Below, piece after piece: positions 18,963-56,894 of a stretch of 64,000 nucleotides of DNA. The stretch covers positions 1,024,001 through 1,088,000 of the forward strand of contig CAWHAE010000009.1 in NCBI GenBank assembly GCA_963827235.1, given 5' to 3'. The first letter of the stretch is position 1; every line of letters starts with the position of its first letter. Under the pieces are notes generated by a model. It was given only the letters and a program-made list of their open reading frames with translations. It ran no database searches and was not told the origin of the DNA. Source of the DNA: an uncultured bacterium. Lineage in GTDB: Bacteria > Chloroflexota > UBA5177 > JANWHV01. A program made the position numbers and the translations under genes.

Positions 18963-19370
18963 ATGCCGAGACAGGTGGGTTCCCCGGTGGTGGTGGAAGG
19001 ATCGATAGTCCCGAGGGGCGATGGAGCGGCCCTGCCCGAGCCGTGGACCCGAAGCTGCCGCAAGGGGCCGCGGGGTGGGCTGAAGCGGGAGCCGCGGGTG
19101 GACGAGAGCGACCTGTACGTGCTGTTCCGGGAGCGCGGCGCCGGGCGGTATCCGTTCCTGCTGGCATGGCTGAACCGGCACGGGCTGACCTCCGGGTACG
19201 AGGTGCAGCACGCGGCACGCTTCGGGCGGGTGCTGGTGGTGGGGCAGCCGGACGGGCTCTCGCTGCCGGAGACGTGCGACACGTCGTACGTCAACGCGGA
19301 GACGGCGGACGTGCTGTTCCGCGGCCTGCCGAGCGTGCGGAGCTTCTTTGGGAGGGGGCATGGAGAGTAG
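18963..19370 (+). CDS. Phage hypothetical protein
   Basis: GGGAGGAG RBS before ATG 18963; overlaps the start of the protease. Confidence 0.55.
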   Translation: MPRQVGSPVVVEGSIVPRGDGAALPEPWTRSCRKGPRGGLKREPRVDESDLYVLFRERGAGRYPFLLAWLNRHGLTSGYEVQHAARFGRVLVVGQPDGLSLPETCDTSYVNAETADVLFRGLPSVRSFFGRGHGE

Positions 19371-19845
19371 GGAGAGCCGGATACGGTTCGGCATCAGCCT
19401 GCGGGAGGGGCTGGTGGGGCCGGCGGACAAGCGGGAAGTGGAGGTGGTGTGCATCCGGCCGGGTCTCTCGCGGAACGGCAACTACTACGGGCCGGAGTGC
19501 CTGGCGGAGGCGGTGCCGCTGTTCGAGGGGGCGCGGGCCTACGTGGACCATTCGGACGCCACGCTGCGCAGCGTGCGGGACCTGGCGGGGTCATACAAGA
19601 AGGTGCGGCTGGGCGGTGAGGGCGAGGTCCGGGCGACGCTGCGCATCTCGAAGAGCCAGGAGTGGCTGTGGGCGCTGATCCAGGAGTCGGTGGAGGAGGG
19701 GACGGACCTGGTGGGGCTGTCCATCGACGTGCAGGCGAAGGTGGTGGAGGGGCAGGTAGGCGGCCGGCGGGCGCGCATCGTGGAGCACATCCACACGCTC
19801 TCCAGCGTGGACGTGATCACGAAGGCATCGGCGGGTGGCACGTGG
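19360..19845 (+). CDS. Prohead protease domain, out of frame with the downstream scaffold/capsid (its own frame runs on to 20064)
   Basis: GLSRNGNYY, FEGARAYVDH, RSVRDLAG, VGLSID and SVDVITKASAGG motifs; protein-like sequence switches frame near 19845. Confidence 0.75.
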
Positions 19846-21460
19846 AGATCGTCGAGGAAGCGGGAACGAGGGCGCGTTCCAAGAAGCGGACAAGCAGAGT
19901 TGGTGGGACCAGTGCGAGCCGCTGAACGAGCAGGGGGCGGTGCTGGCGGAGCGGGCGGTGCGCGGCGGGACGTCGGTCGTGGGGCAGCAGCAGCCGGTGC
20001 CGGCGGGGCAGGTGAATCCGGTGCAGCTGGGACCGAGCGTTGGGCAGGCGATTCCTGGGGGTGAAGTGCAGTTGGGAGGGACGTACGTGGTGCAGACCGG
20101 CAGCAATCAGGTGGCGGGCGGCGGTGAGGGTCCGGCTACGGTGGCTCCGGTGGCGCCGCCTGCGCAGATGGTCTCGGCGAGCCAGGCGATCCGGGAGGGG
20201 AACGCGGCTGGAGCCTCCGACTGCGGTCGGATGGCAGCGAACGGGGGCACTGCGGTGCCCGGCGGCGGGATGGCGGTGCGCGAGGGCGAGAGCGCGGCGG
20301 GGGACGTGGCGCGGCTGCCGGAGGAAGTGCGGCAGGAGCGGGCGGTCTTCGCCGGCGAACGGTTGGTGGAGAGCACGCTGGGCAAGACAGAGCTGCCGGC
20401 GGCGATCCGGGCGCGGGTGGCACGGCGGTTTGCCGGTCAGGTGGTCCAGGAGGCGGACCTGCAGGCGGCAATCGACGAGGAGCGGGCCGTGCTGGCGGAG
20501 CTGACGGCGGGCGGGCTGATCCGGGGCATGGGCTACGAGAAGCGGGTCAGCATCGGCATGACGGAGGCGGAGCGGCTGCAGAAGGCGTTCGACCAGCTCT
20601 TCGACATCCAGGAGGGCGACAAGGTACCGGCGCTCTCGGGCATTCGGGAAGCCTACGCGGTGGCCACGCACGACTACGCGGTGACGGGCATCACGCCGTT
20701 GGAGCGGTTGCAGGAAGCGGACACCACGACCTCGACCTTCAGCTACCTGCTGGGCACGAGCATGAACAAGCGGCTGCTCAAGGACTACCAGGCATGGCCC
20801 AGCGAATGGCAGAAGTGGTGCACGATCACGCCGATCAAGGACTTCAAGCTGCAGAACCGGGTGCGGCTGGGTGCCTTCGGCTCGCTGACCACGGTGAGTG
20901 AAGACACGGCGTACACCACGATCACGCTCTCGGACGTGCAGGCGACCTACTCGCCGGCCAAGCGGGGCAACCTGGTGGCGGTGACGCGGGAGACGATCGT
21001 GAACGACGACCTGTACGCGATCAAGCAGATCCCGGGGAAGCTGGCGGTGGCGGCGGCGTTCACGCTGGCGGAGTTCGTATACGGGCTGGTGGCGGCGAAC
21101 GGGGGCAACATCTACGACGGCAACAAGCTGTTCGACTCGATCAACCACCTGAACACGGGCATCATTACCGCCAACCTGGGCACGGCGAACTCGGGGGCGG
21201 CGCTGGCGTCCGCGGCGCTGCAGACGGCGGTGACGAAGATGCGGCGGCAGGCGAACCTGGCGAGCAAGCCGATCGGGCTCAAGCCGCGCTTCATCGTGGT
21301 GCCGCCGGAGCTGGAGTGGACGGCGATGGTGATCACCAAGAGTGCCGGTGCGCCGGGTGGGAACAATAACGACATCAACCCGATGCTGGGCTACTGCGAG
21401 GTGATGGTGGCGCCGCAGATCTGTCAGTTTAAGCATAGGTTTGCGTATCGCGCAACCTGA
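19835..21460 (+). pseudogene. Scaffold plus major capsid protein (Mu gpT-like/HK97 fold), 3'-truncated at 21421 by the transposon
   Basis: TSMNKRLLKDY, KDFK, VTRETIVNDDL, IYDGNKLF, PRFIVVPPELE and NDINP; the last 12 codons come from the transposon end; in-frame GGAGG-N7-GTG at 20087. Confidence 0.8.
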
Positions 21461-21495
21461 TCGTTAAAATCGGCGCACGCAAATATATGCTTAAA
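21422..21495. repeat. Tn7-like transposon end: TGT terminus with three TnsB-type binding sites
   Basis: TGTCAGTT at 21422; TTTAAGCATAGGTTTGCGT at 21428-21446; inverted 17/19 copy at 21477-21495; degenerate inverted copy at 21451-21468; candidate target-site duplication (TSD) AGATC at 21417-21421. Confidence 0.8.
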
Positions 21496-22063
21496 GAACC
21501 GTCCGACGTGCTTGTCTTGTGACACTGATACTTCGGTGCGGAGCCTTCACTGAACCTCATCGCAAGACCAAGAATGGCCAACGCTTAAGTCGCTGCTCAC
21601 ACTTCGCTTACCCTGCAACTGCCTATGCCCGCTTCGGCAGCAACCACCACGCCGAACAGCACACCGCAGTGCATCCAGCAAGCAACTGCGGCGATCATTG
21701 CCACATTTGCATTACGCTGCGGCAGACCTCTCGAGCACCCAAAGTGAAGGGGCAGATACGCATGTCAACGCACGCACGCCGCGAGAATCGGTTATCGCGT
21801 GCGCCTAGAAGCACGCCGCGGCATGCCGACGCGCGGCAGCGTTTAGGCGACGGGAGCCTGCACCGACGTGACCGCACGATGGCCTCCGATGCCTTCAGCA
21901 CGAAGAACACGCCGGGCAAGGCGTGCACCAACCAAACGGTGATCAACATCTACGCGCGTGCCGATCTCGCCTGACGTCCGGCGTCTGCATACTCTACCCC
22001 GTGGAATAGCAGTGTCCACTTCCACGCCGGCGGCCACGTGTCGACCAGATTCATCGAGATCGC

Positions 22064-23551
22064 TCAGAGACTTGGCAGGTCGCGTTCACCACCCGGAGTC
22101 CATCCAGACTTCTCAAGCGCAGACTCCCAGACAGCGTAAAAGATCGGATCCGCGTGATGCGCAGGTGTAGCAAGTCGCTCAATCACTTTCGCCTGGCTGG
22201 GATACTCATCGGCAGCTGTAAGCTCACGTACAATCACATCTACCTCGCGAGCAAGTCCGGCCATTCGGTTGAGACTCCGGTTGCGCTCGTAGCGCCCGTG
22301 AAACTGCGCGATGCGCGCGCACTGCTTTGGATACATGTTCGTGAGCAAAGCAGCATCACACTCAAGACGGCGCGCCAATTGATGTACCGAGGGTGGAGGC
22401 ACGATGTGCCCCGCCAACGCAGCCTCCAGCACCTGGTTGATATCGTCAGACCAGCGGCTTCGATGTGGGCGGGTTGGCGCGCGCATAGGCACGTATTCGT
22501 TCACGAGCGGAGTCAGCGTATCGTGAGGATCAGGCAACTCACCAGTCAGGAAAGTCACCACTCCCACACCCAACCCGGCGCATAACCGCAGGAGTTCGGG
22601 AAATGAAGGCACGCTCACTCCTGTAAGCCATCTTCGTACGGTGTCTTGATGCTGCCCAGTCTTCTGCGCCAGCGCGCGCACCCCAGTGCCATTGACTCTC
22701 CGGGTGGCGGCAGGAGACGCAGTCTCATGCAGTCGCGAAGCAACCCTCTCCTTACCCGGCGGTGAGACGCGGGGAGCTACGGCCACTAGATCTCCTGCCT
22801 GCCGGGCGACCCACATTTCCCAGCGCCCCTCATGGGTTTCGGTTGCTACAGGGTGCTGGGCCGCACGTATCCCATGAACCTTGCTACCCAACGAATCCCC
22901 ACAATGGGGACAAAAGCCAGGACGCGTTATCGGACCCAGCACCGGCATTTCTCGCCAGCACCTTGGATTTGCGCATCGGTCCAGGAGATAGACGTGATGC
23001 CGTAGGCAGACTTGAACAGCGCCGATGGCCCACACCAATCGGTCAGACACAATACCGCCATCTTGCTGCATCTCTTGATAGCAGTATGGACAGTACGCAC
23101 GCATGGATCGTAGCAAGCCTCTAGACGCGATCACGCTACGCCACGTCAGCAGAGTCAGAGATCCGAGCAGTGCTGGCTGGCAAGTCAGCACTTCGACCGC
23201 GTTGACGATCGCCTCAGCCTGACCATCCAACCCATTAATGGCCACAGCGTCCCGCAGCAGCATCCTGCCGAGGGTACGGTCCGACAAGTTGGGCCGCTGC
23301 GCCATCGGGAAGATCTCCTCACCCATCAGCGTGCGAAGGTGTACACAGTGCGCAAACGCCAGGCGTGCCAAATAACCGCTCATACCTTCCACGTCCGGCG
23401 TACCAACCCACTGCGGTGCCAGACGATATAAACGGCTTCGAGCTGAGATCTGGGGAAGTGTGAGGTCAAACACGGCATTGCCGCCGACAGTGGAATTCCA
23501 GGCGGCTTCGTCATCACTCAGATTGTCGATGACAATCACGCTTCTTTCCAC
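22064..23551 (-). CDS. tniQ: TniQ/TnsD-family target selector with internal XRE-like and C-terminal HTH regions
   Basis: EGMSGYLARLAFAHC; zinc ligands YCPYC, CLRH, CxxxxC and CPHC; GVRALA...TVRRWLTG HTH. Confidence 0.85.
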   Translation of the reverse strand: MERSVIVIDNLSDDEAAWNSTVGGNAVFDLTLPQISARSRLYRLAPQWVGTPDVEGMSGYLARLAFAHCVHLRTLMGEEIFPMAQRPNLSDRTLGRMLLRDAVAINGLDGQAEAIVNAVEVLTCQPALLGSLTLLTWRSVIASRGLLRSMRAYCPYCYQEMQQDGGIVSDRLVWAIGAVQVCLRHHVYLLDRCANPRCWREMPVLGPITRPGFCPHCGDSLGSKVHGIRAAQHPVATETHEGRWEMWVARQAGDLVAVAPRVSPPGKERVASRLHETASPAATRRVNGTGVRALAQKTGQHQDTVRRWLTGVSVPSFPELLRLCAGLGVGVVTFLTGELPDPHDTLTPLVNEYVPMRAPTRPHRSRWSDDINQVLEAALAGHIVPPPSVHQLARRLECDAALLTNMYPKQCARIAQFHGRYERNRSLNRMAGLAREVDVIVRELTAADEYPSQAKVIERLATPAHHADPIFYAVWESALEKSGWTPGGERDLPSL

Positions 23552-24819
23552 GCTTGACCCCCTTCGCCACCAACTGGGTCTCGTGTCGGACGGCGTTCAC
23601 CGACCCCGCGCTTGGAATCACGCCGACCAGTCGTTTTTCCGCTGGTCCTGCCATCGCCGTCAGAAACACCGGCGTACTCAGCACCGGGTAGCGTCATGCG
23701 ACCGGCGCCATGACAAAGAGCGTCAAACTGCCGGGTCCTCCACGCGCGCTCCACCGCAGGACTCACCAGAACGGATCTTTCCCCCGTCTGCGCAGCGTCG
23801 ATGAGCCTATCAATATCTTCTGGCGATTGCATGTACTGCTCCACCTGCTTCATGGTAACCTTCGGCGGATCCTTGCTGAGCCCATCAGCCAACACGTGGG
23901 TGAGCAGGTCCTTGAGCGTACCGATACAGCCAATGCATGCCAGGTAGCACTGTCTCCATCGAGTCATCAACTCTATGGGAGTCTCGGGAACTGGCATCTG
24001 AAGCAGCAACGTCTTAAGCGCTGACTGAAAACTGGCGACGTGTTCCTTTTGCGCAATATCGTAACGCGGGATATAGATCTGGTGTCCACCGGAAAGCATG
24101 TCAGTATTGACCTCCCGCAGTGCGTGAAGGTCATCCGTGCCCACCAATACATGCACTACCTTGCAGCGCTTTGCCATCCCTCGGATGACTTCTGCGCGGA
24201 CCTCCAGCGAGTCCGATGAGCACGACAACAACAGGCGCTGCGCTTCGAAGATGAAGAACGCAAGCGGCCTACGTTTATTCAGCGCAGACTCAACAGCATC
24301 CTGCAAGCCCGCAGTTGAATGGTTATAGTGCTTCGATGGCACTGGAGCCAGCGCAGGCCACAATGGGAGCTGGCCAGGTTGGTGCTCAAACGCACGGATC
24401 CGAGCAATCATCGGGACTTGCAGCGCACGCAGGGCATCGCTGTAATGTCGAGCCCAGCCATACCCCCCATTTTCCGGTGCTTTCGCCTCTATTTGTGGAA
24501 GCAGCACACGACCCCTATCTGACTCAAGCTCCTCACGATATTCATCCGCAAGAAGCTTAATGACCTCAGCGCAAGCCGTACGCTTACCTACGCCTTGGGG
24601 GCCACACACCAAGATATGCGACCAACTACCCGGCGTTCGAATCGCATTCAACAGGTCATCACGCGCAGTAGTAAGCGCTGGATGTTCAATCACCGTTTGC
24701 TGAAAGTACGCAAGCCGCTCAGCCGCTGGCTGTCGGAGCAAATCACGCGGAAAGAGACCAGGGCCTAGGGGATTCGCTGTAGATCCTTCGCTCTCGCCTG
24801 CGTCGAACGTTTGATCCAT
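23536..24819 (-). CDS. tnsC: TnsC/TniB-family AAA+ ATPase with atypical Walker motifs
   Basis: ERLAYF..TVIEHP, GPQGVGKRT, FFIFEAQ, HVLVGT and CIGCIGTLKD; lies between tnsAB and tniQ. Confidence 0.85.
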   Translation of the reverse strand: MDQTFDAGESEGSTANPLGPGLFPRDLLRQPAAERLAYFQQTVIEHPALTTARDDLLNAIRTPGSWSHILVCGPQGVGKRTACAEVIKLLADEYREELESDRGRVLLPQIEAKAPENGGYGWARHYSDALRALQVPMIARIRAFEHQPGQLPLWPALAPVPSKHYNHSTAGLQDAVESALNKRRPLAFFIFEAQRLLLSCSSDSLEVRAEVIRGMAKRCKVVHVLVGTDDLHALREVNTDMLSGGHQIYIPRYDIAQKEHVASFQSALKTLLLQMPVPETPIELMTRWRQCYLACIGCIGTLKDLLTHVLADGLSKDPPKVTMKQVEQYMQSPEDIDRLIDAAQTGERSVLVSPAVERAWRTRQFDALCHGAGRMTLPGAEYAGVSDGDGRTSGKTTGRRDSKRGVGERRPTRDPVGGEGGQAWKEA

Positions 24820-24820
24820 C

Positions 24821-27800
24821 TCACGTCAACCGTTCGGTCGTGGGTATCGCGTCAAAATCGAGCGCGAGATCGTCAGCATCGTAAGCACCACGAACACCGT
24901 GCTCAGTCGGGACCGTGCTCCTATTCCGCAGAACCTGCTGGCTCGAGGAGGGAAGCAACACCAGCGGTGGGCGGTCAGATTCGGGGGACTGCTGCGATAC
25001 GGTCGGACTTCCCTCAGCACGATCACTTGGTGCCGGAGAGACTTGCAGTGCAGAGTCCTGCACCTTATCCTCCGGATTACCGGGAAGCACGGCGTCATCG
25101 ATTCTAACAGTGAGTAGGGTCAAAACCGGTTCATGATTCACGTCTTCAGGAGCGACAGGTCGCACCACCAGCGCAGACTGTGCTGGAGCAACCCCGCCAG
25201 CTGGAACCGGCCCACCGGCAATCCGTTGGTTAACAGCAATGTGTAGTGCATCGCGTTTACGTTGCATCAACACTGCCTGGGTCACATCGACGCTGTGCAG
25301 ATAAGCCGCCAGATCCCCAACGTTCAACGTCTTTGAAGCTCGATACGATGCGCGGTTCTTCGCCCGCAACTCCGCAGACGCCAGGCGAAGCAAGCGCTCA
25401 GACATGCCTTTGAACAGGTGGGAGTGGTAGTACGAGAAGCACTTCACCCAACGTCCCACCCGCACCAAGATATACCCCGCATCAAAGGGATCGTACTTCA
25501 CCTCAACACGCGTCCCATTGAACCTGCCCGGAATTGGCGAGGGCACCTTGTAGATCACGTGGTGGAGTTGCACCTGCCCTTTCTTATTAAGCTTCGCAAC
25601 CCCGGTCCGCGTCGTCGGGAGAGTCTCACGCAGAAAGTCATCATCATAGGCGATACGCTTGAAGTCCCGCTCACCAGAGAGGCGCACGCTCTGCTCAAAG
25701 GCATTCCGCGGCGAATCCAAGACGCCCCGGTGTACCGCGGTGTCGTATGTCCCGTAGGCCCAAGCGCAGATCTCCAAGTACAACGTCTCCAGGGACCAGA
25801 TTGCGTGCCGCGCAGGATCCACGGACACAGTCACCTGTCGCACATTGCGCATCACCGTGGTATTTCCCTCGAGGTTATGGATCAACTGTGTATTCAGCGT
25901 GCCGAAGAGTCGCTCGCCTATCGCACCGTGACGCGGCTCAGCGCTGGGACGCTGTCGCTTGATACAACCGTTCTGGGTCAACAACGATTCAAAGTACACC
26001 GAATCGAACTCAGATCCCCCATCAACCACGAGTGCACTAGGAAGGCGATTCCATCGCCGAACACAGTCGCGAATCACCATCATACACGACCGATAACTCG
26101 GCTCGTCAAACGTCAGATAGAGCGCCAGGATACGTCGCGAGAACGCATCCACCATCAGCGTCAGCCACGGTCGACCCAGCACCCTGTTGCTGTACATATC
26201 CATAAGTTGCACGTCAAGCTGCGTGTGATCGAGATGGGCCATCTCCCACGCTCGCACCCCGTGGCGCTCAGGGCCCTCGATTTCCAGGGGAACGTCTTCC
26301 TTGATCCCATAGGCCGCACGCCTCCCCTCACGACGTACTTTTTGCTCGTAGAGCGAAGTGTTGTTAACAGCCCTATAGAACGTCACGTGGCTGGGAGGCG
26401 GCAACCCTTTCTCCTGTGCCAAACGACACACCTCCACGTATGATGACCACGCCCTCCCACGCTTGAGGCCGAGAGCATTCTGTCCCAGATGCTTGTCCCT
26501 GATAACATCGCGCATGATCGCGTAGAGGCGGACATCCAATCGTTGCGAGGAATTCCCGGACCGCGGTTTCGGCAGCAAGCCAACATGACCGTTACCGTAG
26601 CAAACTTCAGCATCGCGGTAGTCCTTGCACCATTGCTGGCACGTACGCAGCGGCGGTGCCTTTGCCGGCAGATGTTCTCCACGCAGAAGCAGTTGCACGA
26701 AAGGATGCCGCCGCGTCGCTTCTGCGTGATCCTGCCGGGACGCGTGAAGCATTCTTTCCCGGCCGGCGGGGGTCATACTTCCTGTATGCGCGGGCAACTC
26801 TGGTAGGTTTGCTATTTCCCCACGGCCGACGAGGTCATCGAAGTCTCGATGCGAAACAGCAAGGACATCCCCGCTTGGACCGACGAGCCTGACGTTGTCA
26901 GCGTCGCCCCCTATCCACGAGAATCGTCCACCGCGCCACGTGACCGTCGCGCCCGGCGTCAAAGCCCGTATGCGAGCGATGCGCGAAACAGCCTCTGTCT
27001 TTGCTTGCTCTGCCAGCGCCCAAGACTGCGCGCTTTCGGCGTCCGCGTAGATCCGCATGCCTGGCCGACGCGCCAGTTGCTCGCTATGGAGGTCAACGCA
27101 GACCTCGCCACGTGCAATGAGCAGATACAGACTATCAGCAACGTTCGGAAAGCGCTGGAGGGATTCAGCGTCAATGATGTCGTGAGTCCGCACACCCGGC
27201 TGCGAACAAACAATGTCGATAAGAGCTTGGCGCAGTTCGGCCCGTACCTCTACGGGGCTTTCACACTGTAGATACTCAGCCAGGAATGAGATGTTCTCCT
27301 GGAACTTCCAGTTGATAGCCTTGGACGAGAAGACCCGATACTCAAGGCCGAACTGCGCCGCGTATGCTTGCCCAGGGGGACAGATCCAATCGGTATCGCC
27401 CACTCTCTGATAGCGATTCGGCTGCTCTACAGAAAGTTCCTGAAGCTTCTCTTCCTGCTTGCATTCCACCCACCAAGCCCCGCGCGCGGCCAGGACGAAG
27501 AAGTCAGGAGTATGCATTCCGCGCCATCGCCGCCCAGCCTTGGCCTGGTAGTCAAGGGGAATCTGCGGCGGTTGATCCCAGATCTCCAGGATGTCATCGT
27601 CGAACTCAGACAGCATGATAAACGGCAACTCGACGGTATGACTCTCGAACTGGACCGAATGACCCATCTTGCGACTCGGATACCGTCCGTGCACGTTTCC
27701 TGCGCGACCACTAACCAAGCGACTGGGAGGGGAACCACGGATGCCCGCGACTTCCGCACGCGCGGCATCAGATAGCCCCACCTCGCCGCACCACGCAGCA

Positions 27801-27823
27801 AACCCCGACTCCGAGAGTTTCAT
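24821..27823 (-). CDS. tnsAB: Natural TnsA-TnsB fusion transposase (1000 aa)
   Basis: N-terminal TnsA: YPSRKM, FES, DQP, TPDF, VECK. C-terminal DDE: LDHT, RPWLT..VDAFSR, VDGGSEF, ERLFGT, KYDPFD. GGAGAG RBS before ATG 27823. Confidence 0.9.
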   Translation of the reverse strand: MKLSESGFAAWCGEVGLSDAARAEVAGIRGSPPSRLVSGRAGNVHGRYPSRKMGHSVQFESHTVELPFIMLSEFDDDILEIWDQPPQIPLDYQAKAGRRWRGMHTPDFFVLAARGAWWVECKQEEKLQELSVEQPNRYQRVGDTDWICPPGQAYAAQFGLEYRVFSSKAINWKFQENISFLAEYLQCESPVEVRAELRQALIDIVCSQPGVRTHDIIDAESLQRFPNVADSLYLLIARGEVCVDLHSEQLARRPGMRIYADAESAQSWALAEQAKTEAVSRIARIRALTPGATVTWRGGRFSWIGGDADNVRLVGPSGDVLAVSHRDFDDLVGRGEIANLPELPAHTGSMTPAGRERMLHASRQDHAEATRRHPFVQLLLRGEHLPAKAPPLRTCQQWCKDYRDAEVCYGNGHVGLLPKPRSGNSSQRLDVRLYAIMRDVIRDKHLGQNALGLKRGRAWSSYVEVCRLAQEKGLPPPSHVTFYRAVNNTSLYEQKVRREGRRAAYGIKEDVPLEIEGPERHGVRAWEMAHLDHTQLDVQLMDMYSNRVLGRPWLTLMVDAFSRRILALYLTFDEPSYRSCMMVIRDCVRRWNRLPSALVVDGGSEFDSVYFESLLTQNGCIKRQRPSAEPRHGAIGERLFGTLNTQLIHNLEGNTTVMRNVRQVTVSVDPARHAIWSLETLYLEICAWAYGTYDTAVHRGVLDSPRNAFEQSVRLSGERDFKRIAYDDDFLRETLPTTRTGVAKLNKKGQVQLHHVIYKVPSPIPGRFNGTRVEVKYDPFDAGYILVRVGRWVKCFSYYHSHLFKGMSERLLRLASAELRAKNRASYRASKTLNVGDLAAYLHSVDVTQAVLMQRKRDALHIAVNQRIAGGPVPAGGVAPAQSALVVRPVAPEDVNHEPVLTLLTVRIDDAVLPGNPEDKVQDSALQVSPAPSDRAEGSPTVSQQSPESDRPPLVLLPSSSQQVLRNRSTVPTEHGVRGAYDADDLALDFDAIPTTERLT

Positions 27824-28234
27824 GATACTCTCCAGCGAGCCGTTGACCGCGGCAACCAGCTTGAAATCCGCCTGGTGCTTGTAGCCACCATCATCGCGCA
27901 TGCTTGCCCGGCACCCAGACGCACCCTGCGCCGAGAAGCCGCAGAATTCGGGCCTAGTGTACACCGCACTCTACCCATTGAATACTCCCAATTCAGTTCG
28001 CCAGACCTCACGGATGGTGCGCGGGCAATCGGCAAGCCTCTGCAGTTTCGCGTCACCCAGTCGCTACTAAGCTCGAGCGGCTAACACCGACGTCAGAGGA
28101 ACGGCCCGGAACACCGTCCGTAGCTCCGCCGCCAAACCCGATACAACACCTGCGACGGCTCTAGTTGCCGACAACAGCAGTTCCCGCATCATCGTGCGCC
28201 CACCTGCTCCACCTGCGTGTCAACATGTAACTTC

Positions 28235-28975
28235 CTATAGGAGCCCCATAACCTCCGCCCAGGCAAGCGTAACATCGAGTTCCTGGCCGTTCTCAAGCGA
28301 AACTAAGATGATCCTCGACATGCAATGGGGCACCACGGCAAGACACTGCTGCAGCACGTAGTGATCGCGAGCCGAGAGTATCCGTACGGCCGACCAATCC
28401 GCAGCGATCGGAAGCACAGGGCAAAACTCAAGCACTTCGACCGCACCATCACTCGCCTGTACCACCGCGTCGGGGCGGGACCCTAACCCGCGACAGCCGT
28501 AGACCGCGTGCAAGTACGGTTGGACAGCCACCAGATGCCGGCCCATTCTCAGACAGGGCACATCCTGGGCATACGAGCGCAACCAGTAATATCCGGCAAG
28601 ATCCGGATGATCGTCTCCGCCAGCGTGCACCCACGCAGCCGCCCAGATAGCGCCGAGAGCCGCGCGCTCGATGATGGCACCTTGCAAGAGGTGCCGATGT
28701 ATCGCCACAGCGGCGCAATGCTGCGCCGTGTACCAGAGCGATGCCAGGCGCGACATGTCCGAAGCACAAGCCAATCCGTGCACTAGCTTGTGGTATTCAC
28801 CAAACCCCCAGCGCCAATCTGGATAAACCGGCGCGTCGTAAAGGGCGTGCATATCCAGACCGGGAAAGCAGCGCCCTTCTTGGTTCCTGTACACCACCCG
28901 TCCCACCTCACGCAGAGTCATCGTTCCCTTGTCGCCTTCGGTCACAAGAGGGGTCACAATGCGCACATAGCGCAA
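28235..28975 (-). CDS. Degenerate PD-(D/E)XK-like protein, paralogue of 29772-30542
   Basis: Shares AVAxHR, LGxxWxAAWVxAGG, AGxxWLxxYA and RPD...DGxVxxLE; lacks the C-terminal Cys cluster; start uncertain. Confidence 0.6.
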   Translation of the reverse strand: MRYVRIVTPLVTEGDKGTMTLREVGRVVYRNQEGRCFPGLDMHALYDAPVYPDWRWGFGEYHKLVHGLACASDMSRLASLWYTAQHCAAVAIHRHLLQGAIIERAALGAIWAAAWVHAGGDDHPDLAGYYWLRSYAQDVPCLRMGRHLVAVQPYLHAVYGCRGLGSRPDAVVQASDGAVEVLEFCPVLPIAADWSAVRILSARDHYVLQQCLAVVPHCMSRIILVSLENGQELDVTLAWAEVMGLL

Positions 28976-29430
28976 TCACGGCCAGTAAAACCATCGGAGA
29001 CACCACGTCTCGATGCTGGATAGACCTGCAATTCACGCAACAACGACTCAATTCGTGTGTGGACGGAACCCAACCGCAACTGTATACTGCCGCTGGATTG
29101 CATCACCTCCAGACCGGTGAACGAATGTGTGGTTCCACGGCCAGCTCGTTTCTCCTGGATACCTTTGAGGTCCTGGTCCTGATCAAGGTGTGTCACGGCA
29201 TCGGGCGAGACGCCGATCCACTTGATACCGGTCATCGGCCCCACGATCACGGCAACCGCCCAATCCTGCATCCGCGTATACTGCGTCGCTTGCATGAGAG
29301 CGACCACGGCAGCGAGCGCTTGCGGCAGCGTCTCGCAACTCGCCACGATCGTGCCCTTCTTTACGCTGACATCCGGCCGCGGGCCGCGGCTATGGCTGCG
29401 CCCAAACACGTCATCCATTTCTACCTCCAT
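28954..29430 (-). CDS. Hypothetical protein
   Basis: 158-aa ORF co-oriented within the nuclease-tns block; GGAGG precedes the second Met. Confidence 0.45.
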   Translation of the reverse strand: MEVEMDDVFGRSHSRGPRPDVSVKKGTIVASCETLPQALAAVVALMQATQYTRMQDWAVAVIVGPMTGIKWIGVSPDAVTHLDQDQDLKGIQEKRAGRGTTHSFTGLEVMQSSGSIQLRLGSVHTRIESLLRELQVYPASRRGVSDGFTGRDCAMCAL

Positions 29431-29771
29431 ACACCGGGTCTATCCCGACGCGACACGCGCCATGCCTGACGCACAAGACCAACTGCGAATTGCGATACGC
29501 GCGGGGCTACACGCGGCCAACGGAGCGTTCAAAGACGCCACGGGGGCGTCGCAGGCGTCTGCTGGTGAGGGGTCAATAGGCAGGGATCCAGAGTCAGAAC
29601 GCCTGACCACCCTCACGTCCTCCCTCCTCCTGCGGGGACGATTACCTGCAACGGCGCCGAGCGGGGCGCTGGCCTGCCGAGGGTCACAGACAGAGTTGTC
29701 GTGCGAGGGATCGAACCCATCCAAGATGTGGGGTGGATCACCGGTCGCCGAGCGCGGCGCCGGGACGCGCG

Positions 29772-30542
29772 CTAGGTCGCGCGGTACGGCAGGATGAAGC
29801 TTTCGGGGCAATCGTCGCGGAAGGAGCAGCGCGAGCAGGTATCGAGCGTCGACGTTGCTTTCAGATCGTCCGGACGCAGCGCGTCAAGCCAGTCCAGCAC
29901 CGATCGGAGGTGATCCTGCACGTCCTCCCAATCCATAGTGATGTCGATCATCTCGTAGGTGTTGAGGTCTGCCACGACGACGCGATGCCAGCAATCCCGC
30001 ATCCGCGGCGGGACCTGCGGCCCTCTCAGAACGATGCCGTCGATGGCTGCCATCATGTGGGTGGCGAGCACATCCAGCGTGGGATGCTTGGCCGAGGATA
30101 GCTCCAGCGCGACGACGGTGCCGTCCGGATCTTCGGCCAGCACGTCCGGCCGGGCCTGAAACACGCGGCCGTCGAACACGTTCTGCAGGGTGTACTCCAC
30201 GGCGACGATACGCCGGCCTTCAACGGCACCGATGAACGGGTTTTCGCGAGCGTACCGCACGAGCCACGCGAGCCCGGCCGGGTTGGGCTCCGCTTCCCCG
30301 CCGGCCCGCACCCAGGCCGCCTTCCACAGATCGCCGAGCACGTTTTCGTCCACGACGGCGCGGCGCTGCGACAGGAGGCGGTGCAAGGCGGCCACAGCGG
30401 TATGGCGAGCCCGATACGCGATCAGAAACTCGTTGGGCGCTGGCGCCGGCGCGTTGCCGTATTCCCCGCGCACGATCTGCCGGTACGCCCGCACGTCGCA
30501 GGCGCTCCCCGCCAGCACTGCCGTCTTCGTAATGGGTCCCAC
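29772..30542 (-). CDS. Cas4/AddB-like PD-(D/E)XK nuclease-fold protein with a probable 4Fe-4S staple
   Basis: GAGAGGAGA RBS before GTG 30542; N-terminal Cys (SACDVR); VEY...ARPD...ALELS; C-terminal CxxCxxxxxC. Confidence 0.7.
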   Translation of the reverse strand: MGPITKTAVLAGSACDVRAYRQIVRGEYGNAPAPAPNEFLIAYRARHTAVAALHRLLSQRRAVVDENVLGDLWKAAWVRAGGEAEPNPAGLAWLVRYARENPFIGAVEGRRIVAVEYTLQNVFDGRVFQARPDVLAEDPDGTVVALELSSAKHPTLDVLATHMMAAIDGIVLRGPQVPPRMRDCWHRVVVADLNTYEMIDITMDWEDVQDHLRSVLDWLDALRPDDLKATSTLDTCSRCSFRDDCPESFILPYRAT

Positions 30543-30605
30543 GGTCTTGGTTCTCCTCTCCGGTATGGCCTCTAGACATCGCTCTATCAGTAGCGTACAA
30601 TTGCA

Positions 30606-30647
30606 ACTATACGCGGATGGACGATCAATGTCAAGAACACGTGTTCT
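30606..30647 (-). promoter_or_regulatory. Near-consensus promoter TTGACA-17-TATAGT with an adjacent perfect LexA-type box AGAAC-ACGT-GTTCT
   Basis: Minus-strand -35 at 30629-30634 and -10 at 30606-30611; palindrome at 30634-30647. Confidence 0.8.
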
Positions 30648-30707
30648 AGGATTCGTCTCGCGTCCGCAAGGCGCGACGAACGAGCAGAGAAGGAGAGGGA
30701 GGGGACC

Positions 30708-31251
30708 ATGAGCGACCAAGAAGGACCGGCGCGATCGCCAAAACGCGGGGAGGGTCGCCGGCAGCGCACGCCCATCACGGAGGTCGATCAACGAGTGCAG
30801 GATCGCCTGGTACGGTTCCGCAAGTACCTCACCGACGTGCTGAAGGAACGCGGCATCTCGATGCGCAAGCTGTCGCTGCAGACCGGCAAGTACGAGGGCT
30901 ACTACCTGAACCTGCTCACAGCGCCGGAACTCGGAGCGCAGGCGCTGCCCACGCCCGAAGACCTGCGCCTGCTGGCGCCGATCATCGGCGCCCCGGTCGG
31001 CCAACTGTTCGAACTGGTCTGGGGCATCACGCGCTCAGAGATCGAGAGCGATCTCAGAAGCGGTAGCCGCGCACTCCGGCGTCTGCGCCGAGAACCGCAC
31101 CGGGTTTTCCAGGGCAGAGTTCGCCGACTTTACGCCCCAAGAGCAAGAGGAGATCCGCAACTTCCTGGGCTACGTGCGCGCCAAGCAGGAGAAGCGCAGG
31201 CTCGAGCAGGCCGAGGCACGAGCGAACAAAGGCGGCAAGGAGCGAAAGTAA
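30708..31251 (+). CDS. ImmR-like XRE HTH repressor, apparently frameshifted near 31056 so that it reads through into immA
   Basis: LKERGISMRKLS HTH; the typical C-terminus FTPQEQEEIRNFLGYVRAK lies in the +1 frame and ends at a TAA overlapping the immA ATG. Confidence 0.7.
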
Positions 31252-31730
31252 TGAATGCCTGGCCACCCCTTTGCCTGCCGCCTGTGGACCCGGATCAGGT
31301 GGCGCAGGACCTCGGCATCGCCGTGAGCTACTGGGACCGCTTGCCGTGCCTGGGCATCTTCGCACGCACTCGCGACGGCTGCGCCGAAATCGCGCTGCGC
31401 GGAGATTTGCAACAACCGCGGAACGAGCGATTGCGCCGGGTCACGCTGGCGCACGAGCTGGGGCACGCGGCGCTGCACGCTGGCACGTACACCTCGCCGC
31501 TACACTGCCACCGGCCCGACTTCACGGCGTCGCGCATCGAGTTCCAGGCCGAGCGCTTTGCCGGCGAGATGCTCTGCCCGGAGAGCCTGGTACAAGCGCT
31601 CTGCCGCGATCGCGGCGAGATCGGACCCGAAGAGATCGAAGAACTAGCAGACGCGGTGCAGGCTCCGAACGAGTTCGTCGGCTGGTGGGTAGCGTTCTTG
31701 GCCCGAAGCGGTCGAATAGTGTTGCCTTGA
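31251..31730 (+). CDS. ImmA/IrrE-family metallopeptidase (DUF955)
   Basis: AAGGAG RBS; PVDP..VA..LGI, RVTLAHELGH and EFQAERFAGEMLCP. Confidence 0.9.
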   Translation: MNAWPPLCLPPVDPDQVAQDLGIAVSYWDRLPCLGIFARTRDGCAEIALRGDLQQPRNERLRRVTLAHELGHAALHAGTYTSPLHCHRPDFTASRIEFQAERFAGEMLCPESLVQALCRDRGEIGPEEIEELADAVQAPNEFVGWWVAFLARSGRIVLP

Positions 31731-32202
31731 GCGCGGGACAAATCCACACATCAAGCGCAGTAATTTAGGCGGCCAAATCGATCAGCAGCGTAACCATCCA
31801 TGCGGGAGCACGAAGGAGCGGGTTGATGCGAGGAGAGGGATGGTCTTCTGAGCGTTGGGCGCGTAGAAAGGATCGAGCATGGGGATCTGCTTGCGAACCG
31901 GGAGCTATCACCAGCAACCACGTTGATGAAACTGCAAAACCGCATCGAACGAAATTTGACGCAAGCCCACAACAGAACGATGAGGAGAGGCCAATGTGAT
32001 TCTATGCAGTAAACAAGAGCAATGACTGGTCATAGCGAAATGATCATACGGTCCAGAACGGCGTTTGACGCGGCTTGGACCTATGGCAACGATAGTGGAA
32101 AGCGTGAGAGGCGGATCTATTCTACGGAACAGAGCGTAGGTGTAGAATTGGTGCGAACTGAAAAGGCGCGAGGGAAACTACGGGAGCGAGAGGTAAGAGA
32201 AG

Positions 32203-33012
32203 ATGACGGACCGGTCGAAGCAAGCGATCATGACCGTTTGCACGTTCCTGTCGTTGGTTTTAGCGTCTATGGCCACGGTACCGGTAGCCCAGGCGCGCGG
32301 CCTCAGCCCGCGGACGCTGGTCGCGAGTGACTTTTTTGGCGCTACCGGCGCGACGTCCGTCTCCCTGAGCGGCGGGCAAGCGGAAACCATTGCAGCCGTA
32401 CCATACCTCAGTTACCTGAGTTTTCTCTGTGGCAAACCGGGGAACGGCGGGGATGCGTCCATTTCTCTCAACGCCGCCACGCTGGTTGGCTACAATGCCC
32501 TGTCATTCTCGCTGGGGATGAGCGATAAGACGTACGCGCACGGTTCGTCGGGCGAGTTGCAGGTTCAGCGAGACGGCCATGCATATGCTACGTACCACGT
32601 CTCCTCCGGGGTACCAGCACGACACGTCATCGTGTTCTTCGGTGGACACAAAATCATCACCTTAGATGGACACTACGACACAGGGGGCGGCTCTGTCGAA
32701 CTGCTGGTCGCGGTCCCGATGGCGATCGTGGTGGGCCCGGCACTGCCAATCCCACTCAGCCTCAACGCCCCCTACGTGGTAGCCGGCGGAACGCAGACTG
32801 CCATCGTGGCGACTACAGCGGCATCGTACGTCACGCTGGTAATCACGTACGGCTCAGGCGCGCCTCTTGTCGTCGGGCCAAAGCTCATCGGACCTGACGG
32901 GAAGTATACGTACACCTGGACCCTGCCTGCAGCTCAACGCGGCCGCGTGCGCGTAACCTTGATCGATGGCGCAGGGAAAGTCACGCAAAGCTCATTCACG
33001 ATAACCGGCTGA
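32203..33012 (+). CDS. Secreted hypothetical beta-rich protein
   Basis: Signal peptide ending VAQA; GAGGT RBS. Confidence 0.6.
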   Translation: MTDRSKQAIMTVCTFLSLVLASMATVPVAQARGLSPRTLVASDFFGATGATSVSLSGGQAETIAAVPYLSYLSFLCGKPGNGGDASISLNAATLVGYNALSFSLGMSDKTYAHGSSGELQVQRDGHAYATYHVSSGVPARHVIVFFGGHKIITLDGHYDTGGGSVELLVAVPMAIVVGPALPIPLSLNAPYVVAGGTQTAIVATTAASYVTLVITYGSGAPLVVGPKLIGPDGKYTYTWTLPAAQRGRVRVTLIDGAGKVTQSSFTITG

Positions 33013-33159
33013 GCAGGCCGCGGACTTACCAACACGAACGTGCCCAGCGACCGTAAACACGAAAGAGAGAACAACACGGCAACAAGTTGAGGGAAAGAAG
33101 CTCAACACGTGAGCGCACGCAAAGCCTAGAGAAGGACGAAAGCGAAAGTAGGTAGAAGA

Positions 33160-33747
33160 ATGACGCGCGGAAAAGGCTTACTCCTTGTCATCGTACTGGT
33201 GGCAGTCGGAGCGGCCATTGCCGTCTACAGCGCAAACAAGAGCGGAGGAACGCTGCCAGGTTCGTCCGCATCGCCGTTGAGCCTAGACTTTTGCAACGAC
33301 GCGCACCAAACGATGAGCTTAAGTCCGCGCTGCCAGTCCGATGACCACAGCCTGGACGGGAAGCTCCACGACTACGAGCTGAGCGTGACCGGGACGAATA
33401 CCGCAGGCTACGATCCGCAGGCCACCCTAACCTACGAGGTTGGCACGCAGCAGAGCGACGGATCGTACGCGTATCGGGCGCTGACGTGCGGTGGCGGCAG
33501 TCTGAGCAACCAACAACGGCTCAGCGCAAACGGCCTGAGCATGTACGACGCCTACTACGACAACTCGATAGTGGATGGCTATCATGCGACACCAGGCTGC
33601 GCGTTCTTTCCCGCGGATCCCAATAAGCCAGGATCTGAAGGAGGATCCTTTGCCGCACCAGGCAACTACCGCTTCCGAGTGTCCGTGGTCGATCCTGACG
33701 GCACTGTCATGCAGCAAGCCACGTACGATGTGAGTGTCGCAAGTTAG
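33160..33747 (+). CDS. Membrane-anchored or secreted hypothetical protein
   Basis: N-terminal TM segment; C-terminal PGNYRFRVSV beta strand. Confidence 0.6.
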   Translation: MTRGKGLLLVIVLVAVGAAIAVYSANKSGGTLPGSSASPLSLDFCNDAHQTMSLSPRCQSDDHSLDGKLHDYELSVTGTNTAGYDPQATLTYEVGTQQSDGSYAYRALTCGGGSLSNQQRLSANGLSMYDAYYDNSIVDGYHATPGCAFFPADPNKPGSEGGSFAAPGNYRFRVSVVDPDGTVMQQATYDVSVAS

Positions 33748-33934
33748 GTGCGGGGTCAGCGGCCGGAGAAACCACGAGCAAGAGGTACATAGAGGTACAA
33801 AGCAAGACAGGACCCGGCAGGCCACTCGAGAGCCAGCATTCAGGACGGTTCGGACCACCTGGTCTATGCCAGGTCTCCCGGGCGGGACGCATCAGCGATC
33901 ACAGGGCATTCGGATACCCACCGTCGGCAGGAGC

Positions 33935-35236: not shown

Positions 35237-35602
35237 CACTACTGCTCCGTTTCGCTTTGGTCTCCGAGCGATCAGCATTTCCCAAGCAACACACATCACA
35301 CGTATCATAGGCCAATTGGCCCACCTGTCAACGAACGCGGCCATGGATAAGAAGCAATGAGCCGAAGTGAAACACGAGCCCAAGTGGATGGGTGATCCGC
35401 GCGCGAACGCAAGCTTGAACGTCAGCGGAGGTCCCACCAAGCCCAACAGTCCCACAGGAGAAGGATAGCCTAGCCGAAAAGCACACGCCCTACCTGCAAT
35501 AACCGGGATAGCTAAACAACCAGCAGAGTCAGCACGCCATTGCATCATCCGCGCAGCCGCTGCACCAGCACGCTTTCACCGATATTGCACAGACAGTGAG
35601 AC

Positions 35603-35631
35603 TTGTTTCGCATTAGAGTGAAGCCTATACT
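35603..35631 (+). promoter_or_regulatory. Candidate promoter TTGTTT-17-TATACT for the WXG100 locus
   Basis: Correct spacing, about 370 nt upstream of ATG 35999. Confidence 0.4.
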
Positions 35632-35998
35632 AGTGGGTGAACCCGAAAGGACTGACCTTTATCAACCGTGCGACAACTGCGAACCAATCGCTGCTTAACC
35701 CAAGAGCACTTGGCAGCGCTAGCCGAACTAGCGGTGGCAACGATCCAAAACGCCGAAAGAGAGGGGCAGTACCGAGTCGGCGATTGTGCGCGACAGTGTT
35801 GATACGAAGGATAGTTATGAGGGATGGCAACGATCACGGGAGTGAAGATCGCACCGACGCGGACTGTGCTCACAGGGGGTCATTCGCGCGCTAACGCAAG
35901 GGCTTCGATGGGGTAGCCGAGCCATGTACATGCCGCTGGGCGTGAGGTACGCTCGTGGGCAATAGGCGCTTTAGTTCATTAGTCGTGGGAGACGTCGA

Positions 35999-36271
35999 AT
36001 GGCTCAAGTGATTGTAAGCCCGGAGGAGGTACGGCACTTTGCGCGCCAGTTCAAGACGTGCAACGCCCAGCTTCTAGACCTGACAACCAGACTGCGTGGG
36101 CAATTCAGCAACCTCGGAGAGACATGGCGCGACCAAGAGTATCAGCGCTTCGCGGTAGAGTTTGAACAAGCTTCGAGAATCCTGCAACAATTCATGCGCC
36201 AGGCCGATCAGTACATTCCCTATCTAGAACGAAAGGCGGCAGCGGCACAGGCCTTCCTGGACCAGCGGTAA
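35999..36271 (+). CDS. WXG100/ESAT-6-family protein
   Basis: 90 aa, helical; MAQVIVSPEEVR.FA; central LGETWRD. Confidence 0.85.
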   Translation: MAQVIVSPEEVRHFARQFKTCNAQLLDLTTRLRGQFSNLGETWRDQEYQRFAVEFEQASRILQQFMRQADQYIPYLERKAAAAQAFLDQR

Positions 36272-36276
36272 CGTCG

Positions 36277-40766: not shown

Positions 40767-40805
40767 GTCCGCGCCAAGGCACTCAGGGAAAGGATGCGCT
40801 GACCA

Positions 40806-41021: not shown

Positions 41022-41301
41022 CGACACAAGCAGCACCTGCCGAGCGAGGCTTACTGTTTGCACAGATACATCGTATTGAGCCCATAGTTGAAGCACGTTA
41101 CTGCCCTCGAGAGTGAAGGCTCACCTGTGTCCGTGCGGCCGCCGGGCTCCAGGATACACGCAACTGCCACAGCAGCACGCCCCTCCGGGTGCGGAAGGGC
41201 GTCCCTTGTAAGGTGAGTTGCCGAATATCCACCAAGTGCTCGGTAGCAAACGCGCCCGCCATCTTCTCCTGGAATCCTGGCTCACAGCACCCCCTGTAGC
41301 G

Positions 41302-56892: not shown

Positions 56893-56894
56893 TC

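What the first reader, a model, noticed from the sequence alone, without database searches (positions are those of the whole stretch)
21417..27823. Tn7-like element with fused TnsAB inserted in a phage major capsid gene
Seen: capsid homology stops at ...VMVAPQI, exactly where TGTCAGTT and the repeated 19-bp sites begin. tnsAB-tnsC-tniQ points toward this end. There is a single TniQ and no cas or tnsE gene in view. Established: TnsAB fusions occur in the lineage that includes I-B2 and I-D CASTs, whose TnsD proteins usually target tRNA genes. Inference: either this TniQ recognises a new attachment site in a capsid gene, or the insertion was untargeted. Either way it disables the head cluster.
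Basis: partly seen in the sequence, partly recalled or inferred. Interest (0 to 1): 0.72.

Follow-up and report, generated by a model that had tools for sequence, protein, structure and literature searches.

The report
Tn7-like transposon splitting a prophage capsid gene
A 47.6-kb Tn7-family transposon carrying defence genes and a CRISPR array without cas genes sits precisely inside a prophage capsid gene, probably steered there by its own DNA-binding targeting protein.

Summary
The element is 47,575 bp with a 5-bp AGATC duplication. Eleven relatives, including all four congeners, carry the capsid gene uninterrupted.

It belongs to the fused-TnsAB clade of Tn7-like elements, the lineage of the I-B2 and I-D CASTs. 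Both its TnsAB and its TniQ are full-length homologues of the solved PmcCAST proteins. Its left end has binding sites in both orientations, as published for this clade.

The genome holds one TniQ and no detectable cas gene. However, a 14-repeat type I-E-like CRISPR array lies near the right end, outside the window; no spacer matches the capsid.

Targeting is likely but unproven, at about 0.6. The left end faces the most conserved 30 nt of the capsid gene, 23-52 nt away. In this clade the TnsD motif lies 40-50 bp from the left end. Against this, no second insertion and no close TniQ relative was found.

The parts
19348..20064 (+). N-terminal (protease-like) part of the head protein, in a different reading frame from the capsid part
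   Evidence: 86% identical to residues 82-246 of the congener's fused 808-aa protein P0007. A 25-nt indel near 19845-19870 shifts the frame.
19835..21421 (+). Left part of the major capsid gene (529 codons up to ...VMVAPQI). It then reads 12 codons into the transposon and stops at 21460. The right part (72 codons, IASATYW...GNN, then the stop) lies outside the window at C9:1092999-1093217, which would be window 68999-69217.
   Evidence: Pfam Phage_capsid_4 and Mu-like_gpT. PHROG 4523, profile positions 341-577 of 644. 76% identical to P0007 residues 244-737. Right part; it is 92-97% identical to the four congeners and directly continuous with the left part in 11 of 11 relatives.
21370..21399 (.). 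Candidate TniQ/TnsD recognition block inside the capsid gene. The core is AACGACATCAACCCGATGCTGGGCTAC at 21368-21394.
   Evidence: It is the most conserved of 1132 sliding 30-nt windows in a codon alignment of 11 relatives, and lies 23-52 nt from the left end. That TniQ binds it is inferred.
21417..21421 (.). Left copy of the 5-bp target-site duplication, AGATC. The right copy lies outside the window at C9:1092997-1093001, which would be window 68997-69001.
   Evidence: Uninterrupted relatives have this stretch once.
21422..21495 (.). Left end (next to tniQ): TGT terminus plus three 18-nt TnsAB-type sites, 21428-21445 pointing inward and 21451-21468 and 21478-21495 inverted
   Evidence: The same layout is seen across the family and is published for this clade.
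22064..23551 (-). tniQ, a TnsD-like target selector of 495 aa
   Evidence: Pfam TniQ and HTH_31. Aligns at residues 28-464 with the solved TnsD chain 8v32_J/9bw1, E 2.8e-55. Only TniQ in the genome.
23536..24819 (-). tnsC, an AAA+ regulator of 427 aa
   Evidence: Pfam AAA_22, AAA_16 and TniB. Homologues lie in the same position in related elements.
24821..27964 (-). tnsAB, a fused endonuclease-transposase of 1047 aa
   Evidence: Pfam Tn7_TnsA-like_N, rve and Mu-transpos_C. The fusion is conserved in single tblastn alignments. The profile matches the 898-aa chain 9bw1_M end to end. The catalytic-type motifs are intact; assigning them to the catalytic residues is recalled.
28235..64000 (.). Cargo, which runs on beyond the window to C9:1092996 (would be window 68996). 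It is mostly defence-like genes: an FtsK/SspH-like ATPase (37254-40766); an SbcC/SbcD-like four-gene operon (44603-51806, minus strand); an AriA/OLD/GajA-like ATPase (52583-54472); a C5 DNA methylase (54785-56191); an SspF/DndF-like protein (56838-58883); a weak MAD7-like protein (58880-60493); a 1885-aa protein with an AAA/RuvB-like C-terminus (60478 to would-be 66135). Also a WXG100 protein and a Peptidase_M78 protein. OUTSIDE THE WINDOW: (a) a CRISPR array with no cas genes at C9:1091201-1092028 (would be 67201-68028, + strand), with 14 repeats of 29 nt, ATCGTCCCCACGTGCGTGGGGGTGAACCG, and 13 spacers, plus a 14th spacer followed by a degenerate repeat; (b) the right end at C9:1092862-1092996 (would be 68862-68996), with an ...ACA terminus and three sites in one orientation at 68973-68990, 68950-68967 and 68862-68879, plus a probable fourth seen by eye.
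   Evidence: Cargo; no complete named defence system was established. Array; the repeat is of type I-E kind because the most similar array found sits beside a type I-E cas operon. Right end.

Best explanation
This is an intact, single-copy Tn7-like transposon of the fused-TnsAB clade, 47,575 bp long. It moved by cut-and-paste transposition into the major capsid/protease gene of a prophage-like head cluster and duplicated AGATC.

The most likely mechanism is the TnsD-type homing pathway of this clade. The single large TniQ has a zinc-finger TniQ domain and a C-terminal helix-turn-helix region. It would bind a conserved stretch of capsid coding DNA about 25-55 bp from the insertion point. It would recruit TnsC, which positions TnsAB bound to the two ends, so that the left end lands next to the recognised sequence.

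The insertion separates the last 72 codons from the capsid gene and so disables it. It brings in about 39 kb of defence-type cargo and a type I-E-like CRISPR array that has no cas genes.

Shown: both ends, the duplication, the empty sites in relatives, the protein homologies, the end architecture and the orientation. Inferred: that TniQ binds the conserved block, and that the element is active.
For: Ends and duplication.

Empty sites: 11 of 11 fetched relatives have the capsid uninterrupted. The congener G154 is collinear straight across the junction, with own 21421|68996 matching G154 30753|30748.

Family membership:
- The operon with fused tnsAB, tnsC and tniQ is conserved in 7 of 7 loci from the phylum.
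- There are 295 TnsAB relatives in genome contigs.
- TniQ aligns along its full length with the solved TnsD, E 2.8e-55.
- The TnsAB profile matches PmcCAST TnsAB (9bw1_M) end to end.
- The left end has sites in both orientations, as published for this clade.

Selectors in this family are sequence-specific:
- In a 66-row TniQ tree the kind of attachment site is clade-specific, with separate tRNA, dnaN and hairpin-flank clades.
- 16 of 53 scanned flanks have a tRNA 30-33 nt from the left end, reading toward it.
- Two elements lie at the same codon of dnaN.

Geometry at this locus:
- The capsid gene reads toward the left end, as the tRNA and dnaN targets do.
- The most conserved 30-nt window of the gene (rank 1 of 1132) lies 23-52 nt from the end.
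- The insertion point itself is in an indel-variable loop.
- Only 1.6% of positions in that alignment have an equally conserved block at that distance.
- The published TnsD motif distance for this clade is 40-50 bp from the left end, and homing occurs 30-33 nt past the tRNA.

The target is common and single-copy: 77 of 401 genomes of the phylum have the capsid gene.

The element is single-copy in the genome.
Against: Only one insertion is known.
- None of the 76 other capsid-bearing genomes has the gene split at this site.
- No other copy of the end sequence was found in metagenome or viral contigs.
- No TniQ closer than 34-36% identity was found among 5.8 billion proteins, in the phylum sample or in metagenome contigs. 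Site preference therefore cannot be read from relatives.

The conservation test covers only about 1.1 kb of one gene, rests on 11 related sequences, and was run after the site was known.

The insertion destroys its target, whereas most Tn7-like homing spares the target gene.

A clade member with a single TniQ, Tn5469, is described as a spontaneous insertion mutagen.

The tniQ stop lies 642 bp from the end, against 35-243 bp in 53 of the other 57 family loci where I placed the end.
Confidence: 0.6

Rival explanations
1. This is the same transposon, but the capsid insertion was not directed by recognition of the capsid sequence. It was an off-target, pseudo-site or relaxed-specificity event. The element's true attachment site, if it has one, lies elsewhere or is missing from this genome.
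For: There is a single instance, with no second insertion among 76 other capsid-bearing genomes. Tn5469 provides a precedent in the same clade (passage). The insertion is disruptive. The capsid gene also carries a frameshift. If that frameshift came first, nothing would have selected against a random hit in this gene.
Against: The orientation and the distance to the most conserved block fit the clade's rule. The TniQ is a full-length TnsD homologue with a helix-turn-helix region. The 120-nt flank has no similar sequence elsewhere in the genome that could be a primary site; the best other matches are 15-17 nt, E 0.04 or higher. The element is single-copy.
Confidence: 0.33
2. The insertion was RNA-guided, as in a CAST. 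A guide from the element's own type I-E-like array directed it, using Cas proteins that are either unrecognised in the cargo or supplied by a host.
For: A 14-repeat array lies about 1 kb from the right end. The element belongs to the lineage that produced the I-B2 and I-D CASTs. The last spacer is followed by a degenerate repeat.
Against: None of the 14 spacers matches the capsid region; the best local scores are 9-15 out of 32-33. No Cas7e, Cas6e or Cas1 Pfam match was found in the genome. Six type I-E Cas proteins give no tblastn hit. There is no second, small TniQ. Cargo proteins gave no Cas family in Pfam, PADLOC or NCBIfam.
Confidence: 0.03
3. The junctions are an assembly artefact of a metagenome-assembled genome (contamination estimate 9%).
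For: The genome is a 21-contig assembly with 9.06% estimated contamination. The element's GC content (0.57-0.62) differs from that of the flanking phage DNA (about 0.70).
Against: The two halves of one gene abut the two ends of one element, with matching terminal inverted sequence and an exact 5-bp duplication, and the reading frame is restored when the element is removed. A chimeric join would not produce that.
Confidence: 0.02

Closest known systems
TnsD homing pathway of the fused-TnsAB Tn7-like clade: type I-B2 PmcCAST, type I-D McCAST and CyCAST, and their non-CAST cyanobacterial relatives
   Same: It shares the fused TnsAB, the TnsC and the large TnsD-like TniQ, each homologous over its full length. 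It also shares the 5-bp duplication, a left end with sites in both orientations, and a left end that faces the target.
   Different: There are no cas genes and no second TniQ. The host is not a cyanobacterium; I infer the phylum Chloroflexota from the named relatives. The target is a prophage capsid coding sequence, cut 72 codons before its stop, instead of a site 30-33 nt past a tRNA. TnsAB is at most 42% identical and TniQ at most 36% identical to any relative found.
Tn6022/AbaR-type Tn7-like elements that insert in comM
   Same: It is a Tn7-like element whose dedicated site lies inside a protein-coding gene, which the insertion inactivates (passages).
   Different: Tn6022 uses a TniQ together with the TnsF selector and belongs to a different clade (passage). 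Here a TnsD-type protein is the only selector, and site specificity has not been shown.
Tn5469, a fused-TnsAB element with a single TniQ
   Same: It is in the same clade, has one TniQ, and was found because it interrupted a gene (passage).
   Different: Tn5469 carries no cargo and is read as untargeted. This element carries about 39 kb of cargo and shows target-side geometry that fits TnsD homing. I did not compare the two TniQ sequences.
Array-targeting Tn7-like transposons of cyanobacteria (Mob DNA 2025, PMC11837452)
   Same: They are in the same clade. Their TnsD motif lies 40-50 bp from the left end, and they are associated with CRISPR arrays (passages).
   Different: Those elements insert into arrays, so the array flanks the element. 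Here the array lies inside the element, near its right end.
Integrase-borne satellites that integrate into prophage late genes (bioRxiv 10.1101/2022.07.18.500453)
   Same: They are mobile elements that repeatedly use prophage late genes as integration sites. I saw only the search listing and the start of the abstract.
   Different: They use a tyrosine or serine integrase and depend on a helper phage. They are not Tn7-type transposons.

Membership tests
Tn7-like transposons, fused-TnsAB clade | TnsA and TnsB encoded as one polypeptide | tested here: met
   One 1047-aa open frame carries TnsA_N, rve and Mu-transpos_C. Single tblastn alignments span residues about 47-906 in relatives. The profile matches the 898-aa chain 9bw1_M end to end.
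Tn7-like transposons, fused-TnsAB clade | An adjacent TnsC AAA+ regulator | tested here: met
   AAA_22, AAA_16 and TniB hits. Homologues lie in the same operon position in 6 of 7 phylum loci.
Tn7-like transposons, fused-TnsAB clade | [quoted passage not shown] | tested here: met
   TniQ and HTH_31. Residues 28-464 align with the solved TnsD, residues 12-442, E 2.8e-55.
Tn7-like transposons, fused-TnsAB clade | A 5-bp target-site duplication and TGT...ACA termini | tested here: met
   AGATC lies on both sides. The termini are TGTCAGTTTA... and ...TAAACTGACA. Relatives have a single copy of the duplicated stretch.
Tn7-like transposons, fused-TnsAB clade | [quoted passage not shown] | tested here: met
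   Left end: one forward and two inverted sites. Right end: three forward sites. Family pattern; published statement.
Tn7-like transposons, fused-TnsAB clade | Site-specific use of an attachment site, shown by independent insertions at the same site | tested here: inconclusive
   No second insertion was found among 76 other capsid-bearing genomes. No other copy of the end sequence and no close TniQ relative was found. The geometry supports targeting.
CRISPR-associated transposon (CAST) | Cas effector genes carried inside the element | tested here: not met
   No Cas family appeared among the cargo proteins I submitted to Pfam, PADLOC or NCBIfam. No Cas7e, Cas6e or Cas1 was found in the genome. 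Six type I-E Cas proteins gave no tblastn hit.
CRISPR-associated transposon (CAST) | A CRISPR array inside the element | tested here: met
   14 repeats at C9:1091201-1092028, which would be window 67201-68028
CRISPR-associated transposon (CAST) | A small adaptor TniQ that links Cascade to TnsC | tested here: not met
   There is only one TniQ match in the whole genome, and it is the 495-aa TnsD-like protein.
CRISPR-associated transposon (CAST) | A spacer that matches the occupied site | tested here: not met
   The best local scores of the 14 spacers against the capsid flanks are 9-15 out of 32-33.

The most novel reading that the evidence does not exclude
A TnsD-type selector has evolved to home into a conserved coding block of a phage-type capsid gene. 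That gene is single-copy and nearly universal in several genera of this phylum. The transposon would thus use resident prophage-like (possibly gene-transfer-agent-like) head clusters as safe landing sites, knock out their capsid, and deliver a defence island.

A bolder extension, at no more than about 0.05, is that the type I-E array it carries supplies guides to a host's own Cascade when the element enters a host that has Cas proteins.
Probability: 0.55. Interest if true: 0.65.

Novelty: new member of a known kind. Interest (0 to 1): 0.5.

Why it matters
The attachment sites known to me for Tn7-like elements are mostly tRNA genes, glmS, comM and a few other host genes. My two literature look-ups found no phage capsid gene among them. 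Those were a full-text search and term searches in Faure 2023 and Benler 2021.

If this TniQ really recognises the capsid block, it would be a new class of 'safe site'. That site costs the host nothing and disarms a prophage-like element. It would also give a new, compact, protein-guided specificity in the same clade as the engineered PmcCAST and McCAST systems.

The locus also shows that the fused-TnsAB clade, described mainly from cyanobacteria, extends into named Chloroflexota, Acidobacteriota and other phyla and uses non-tRNA sites such as the 3' end of dnaN.

If the insertion was instead off-target, this is an ordinary transposon hit in a decaying prophage.

Tried and rejected
1. Distal end inside the window: not there. 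It was found 5 kb beyond the window by a genome-wide k-mer search.

I used the TnsAB alignment A3 instead.

3. Capsid homology next to related elements: none in 7 loci.

4. Pseudo-site idea: the 120-nt flanks have no meaningful similarity elsewhere in the genome.

5. Other copies of the element or close TniQ relatives: none in metagenome contigs or viral contigs.

6. Spacer targets: none in the capsid region or in the phage collection. Spacer 14 matches 26 of 33 nt inside an unrelated 1894-aa open frame on contig C18. I did not explain this match.

7. Rfam: no family in the window or in L002. None for the conserved hairpin beside another subgroup's sites.

8. The 238-aa open frame upstream of the array: the ESM Atlas gave only unnamed clusters.

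9. Arrays in related loci: 4 of 88 loci have a CRISPR-like array, but their right ends were mostly not covered.

10. Careful maximum-likelihood tree: it did not finish, so only the quick tree is reported.

Supplementary Table S1 of Hsieh & Peters 2022, which lists the TnsAB elements, may hold non-tRNA sites that I could not see.

Full report
**What is at the coordinates.** The + strand reads ...GTG GCG CCG CAG ATC | TGTCAGTTTAAGCATAGGTTTGCG... AGATC is at 21417-21421 and the element starts at 21422. The open frame 19835-21460 matches Phage_capsid_4 and Mu-like_gpT. It also matches PHROG 4523, 'major head and protease protein', but only to profile position 577 of 644. Upstream genes include a portal, a DNA methyltransferase and an endolysin-type protein. 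Further along the contig lie a tape-measure-type protein and a large serine recombinase. On the minus strand, tnsAB (24821-27964; TnsA_N, rve, Mu-transpos_C), tnsC (23536-24819) and tniQ (22064-23551; TniQ plus HTH_31) read toward 21422. GC content falls from about 0.70 in the phage genes to 0.57-0.62 from 21.4 kb onward. The genome average is 0.65.

**The distal end.** No second end lies inside the window. In the whole genome the terminal 10-mer recurs once, inverted, at C9:1092987. The sequence there is ...CCTAAACTGACA | AGATC GCG AGC GCG... The frame that continues from ...VMVAPQI reads IASATYWMAV...YLGNN*, 72 codons. The element therefore spans C9:1045422-1092996, which is window 21422 to a would-be 68996. 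It is 47,575 bp long and has a 5-bp AGATC duplication.

**Empty sites.**
- A capsid fragment finds homologues in 21 of 61 relatives, including 4 of 4 congeners at 80-83% identity.
- In all 11 fetched loci the left and right capsid parts are contiguous. One of these loci is from the unpublished genome G145.
- L102 reads ...GCGCCGCAGATCGCCAGC..., with a single AGATC.
- In congener G154 the whole region is collinear across the junction and lacks the 47.6 kb.

**Which family.**
- Seven loci from the same phylum carry tniQ homologues. All show the TnsAB fusion as single alignments, and six also show tnsC.
- A TnsAB alignment found 295 relatives in genome contigs. The best 80 are from Nostoc and other cyanobacteria, Chloroflexota, Acidobacteriota and a few other groups, at 37-42% identity.
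- The TnsAB profile matches PDB chain 9bw1_M (898 aa) end to end.
- The window's TniQ aligns at residues 28-464 with the TnsD chain 8v32_J/9bw1, E 2.8e-55.
- A 2026 preprint, of which I read passages, calls 9BW1 the PmcCAST TnsABC structure.
- Passages of Hsieh & Peters 2022 describe this fused-TnsAB clade. Its TnsD-like large TniQs mostly target tRNA genes. More than 99% of insertions have the left end next to the target. [quoted passage not shown]
- The window's element shows that layout: the left end has 1 forward and 2 inverted sites, and the right end has 3 forward sites.
- Across the family I placed the same tniQ-proximal end in 58 of 75 loci that have a tniQ stop codon.

**What the family targets.**
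- Of 53 left-end flanks long enough to scan, 16 have a tRNA whose 3' end lies 30-33 nt away and which reads toward the element. This agrees with the 30-33 nt reported for CyCAST homing (passage).
- Seven more flanks share a tRNA-like 3' end by eye.
- Two Chloroflexota elements sit at the same codon at the 3' end of dnaN.
- Six elements share a flanking hairpin.
- In a quick maximum-likelihood tree of 66 TniQs these site types fall into separate clades. The window's TniQ is a long branch (1.47) joined only weakly to another long branch. Three rows with internal stops and all rows with short matches were left out of this tree, and the careful search did not finish.
- So large TniQs in this family behave as sequence-specific selectors, and this one is of a new kind.

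**Targeted or not.** The capsid gene reads toward the left end, as the tRNA and dnaN targets do. I made a codon alignment of the 11 uninterrupted relatives and scored 1132 sliding 30-nt windows.
- The most conserved window starts 52 nt before the insertion point (window 21370-21399; core AACGACATCAAYCCNATGMTGGGCTAC).
- The insertion point itself falls in the least conserved stretch, where five relatives carry a 7-codon insert.
- Only 1.6% of positions in that alignment have an equally conserved block at that distance.
- A 2025 paper on this clade places the TnsD motif 40-50 bp from the left end (passages).

Against targeting:
- The test was run after the site was known, and the 11 sequences are related to each other.
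- In a 401-genome sample of the phylum, 77 genomes have the capsid gene and only this one has it split at this site. The other double matches are adjacent pieces or lie at contig ends.
- No other copy of the end sequence was found, and no TniQ above 34-36% identity.
- Tn5469, a clade member with one TniQ, is read as untargeted.

I put targeting at about 0.6.

**Cas genes, a second TniQ and a surprise.**
- Pfam TniQ hits the genome once.
- The cargo proteins I scanned gave no Cas family. They gave defence-type hits instead: SspH/FtsK-like, SbcCD-like, AriA/OLD/GajA-like, a C5 methylase, SspF/DndF-like and a weak MAD7.
- About 1 kb inside the right end, beyond the window, lies a CRISPR array of 14 repeats of 29 nt. 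It has 13 spacers, plus a 14th spacer followed by a degenerate repeat.
- The most similar array found sits beside a type I-E cas operon on a Streptomyces plasmid.
- Similar repeats (3 mismatches or fewer) occur in 40 of 401 genomes of the phylum. They occur in none of the 4 congeners, and the exact repeat occurs only here.
- The genome shows no Cas7e, Cas6e or Cas1. The E. coli control did not respond for the first two families, so sensitivity there is uncertain. Six type I-E Cas proteins give no tblastn hit.
- No spacer matches the capsid region.
- The array therefore has no cas genes in this genome and does not explain this insertion.

**State of the target gene.**
- The 72 separated codons are 92-97% identical among the four congeners.
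- Relative to the congener's fused 808-aa protein, the gene also carries a 25-nt indel near 19845-19870. This puts the protease-like part and the capsid part in different frames. Whether it is a real lesion, a natural split or an assembly error is open.

**Verdict.** This is a new member of a known kind of element, in a little-described branch of it. It has a plausible but unproven new attachment site and an unexpected CRISPR array without cas genes.

Noticed in passing
C9:1091201-1092028 (would be window 67201-68028; L002 11201-12028): A type I-E-like CRISPR array lies inside the transposon about 1 kb from its right end: 14 repeats and 13 spacers, plus a 14th spacer followed by a degenerate repeat. 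No cas genes are detectable in the genome. One repeat has a poly-G expansion and one is 1 nt short.
   Followed up: yes
C18:22311-22343: The last spacer of the array matches 26 of 33 nt (25 of the first 27) inside a 1894-aa open frame on another contig, with TTC on its 5' side. That frame is not a paralogue of the element's 1885-aa protein. The meaning is unknown.
   Followed up: partly
window 19845-19870: A 25-nt indel relative to the congener G154 puts the protease-like N-terminal part (19348-20064) and the capsid part (19835 onward) of the head gene in different frames. Congeners encode one fused protein of 722-923 aa.
   Followed up: partly
window 9000-21421 and C9:1092997 to about 1122000; G154:C8, G111:C1, G188:C1: The capsid gene is single-copy and present in every sampled genome of several genera: 4 of 4 congeners, 8 of 8 in genus g59 and 11 of 11 in genus g64. 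Overall it is in 77 of 401 genomes of the phylum. Identity tracks taxonomy (about 80%, 70% and 49%). Portal and capsid stay neighbours. This pattern suggests a vertically inherited prophage or a gene-transfer-agent-like cluster more than a free temperate phage.
   Followed up: partly
L016, L070, L081, L083, L096, L099: 60-100 nt beyond the left end: One Chloroflexota subgroup of the family sits next to a conserved hairpin, GGGTGAGGGGGGCACCC (stem plus an AGGGGGG loop). It matches no Rfam family. It may be that subgroup's attachment signal.
   Followed up: partly
L014 (G068:C28) and L043: Two related elements are inserted at the same codon at the extreme 3' end of dnaN, and the transposon end supplies the stop codon. 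This is a protein-gene attachment site for this clade outside cyanobacteria.
   Followed up: partly
window 21496-22063: About 570 bp between the innermost left-end site and the tniQ stop codon have no recognised gene or RNA. In 53 of the other 57 family loci where I placed the end, tniQ ends 35-243 bp from the terminus.
   Followed up: no
window 14849-16561: A phage-type DNA methyltransferase gene lies between the portal and endolysin genes. It has no counterpart in the otherwise collinear congener G154.
   Followed up: no
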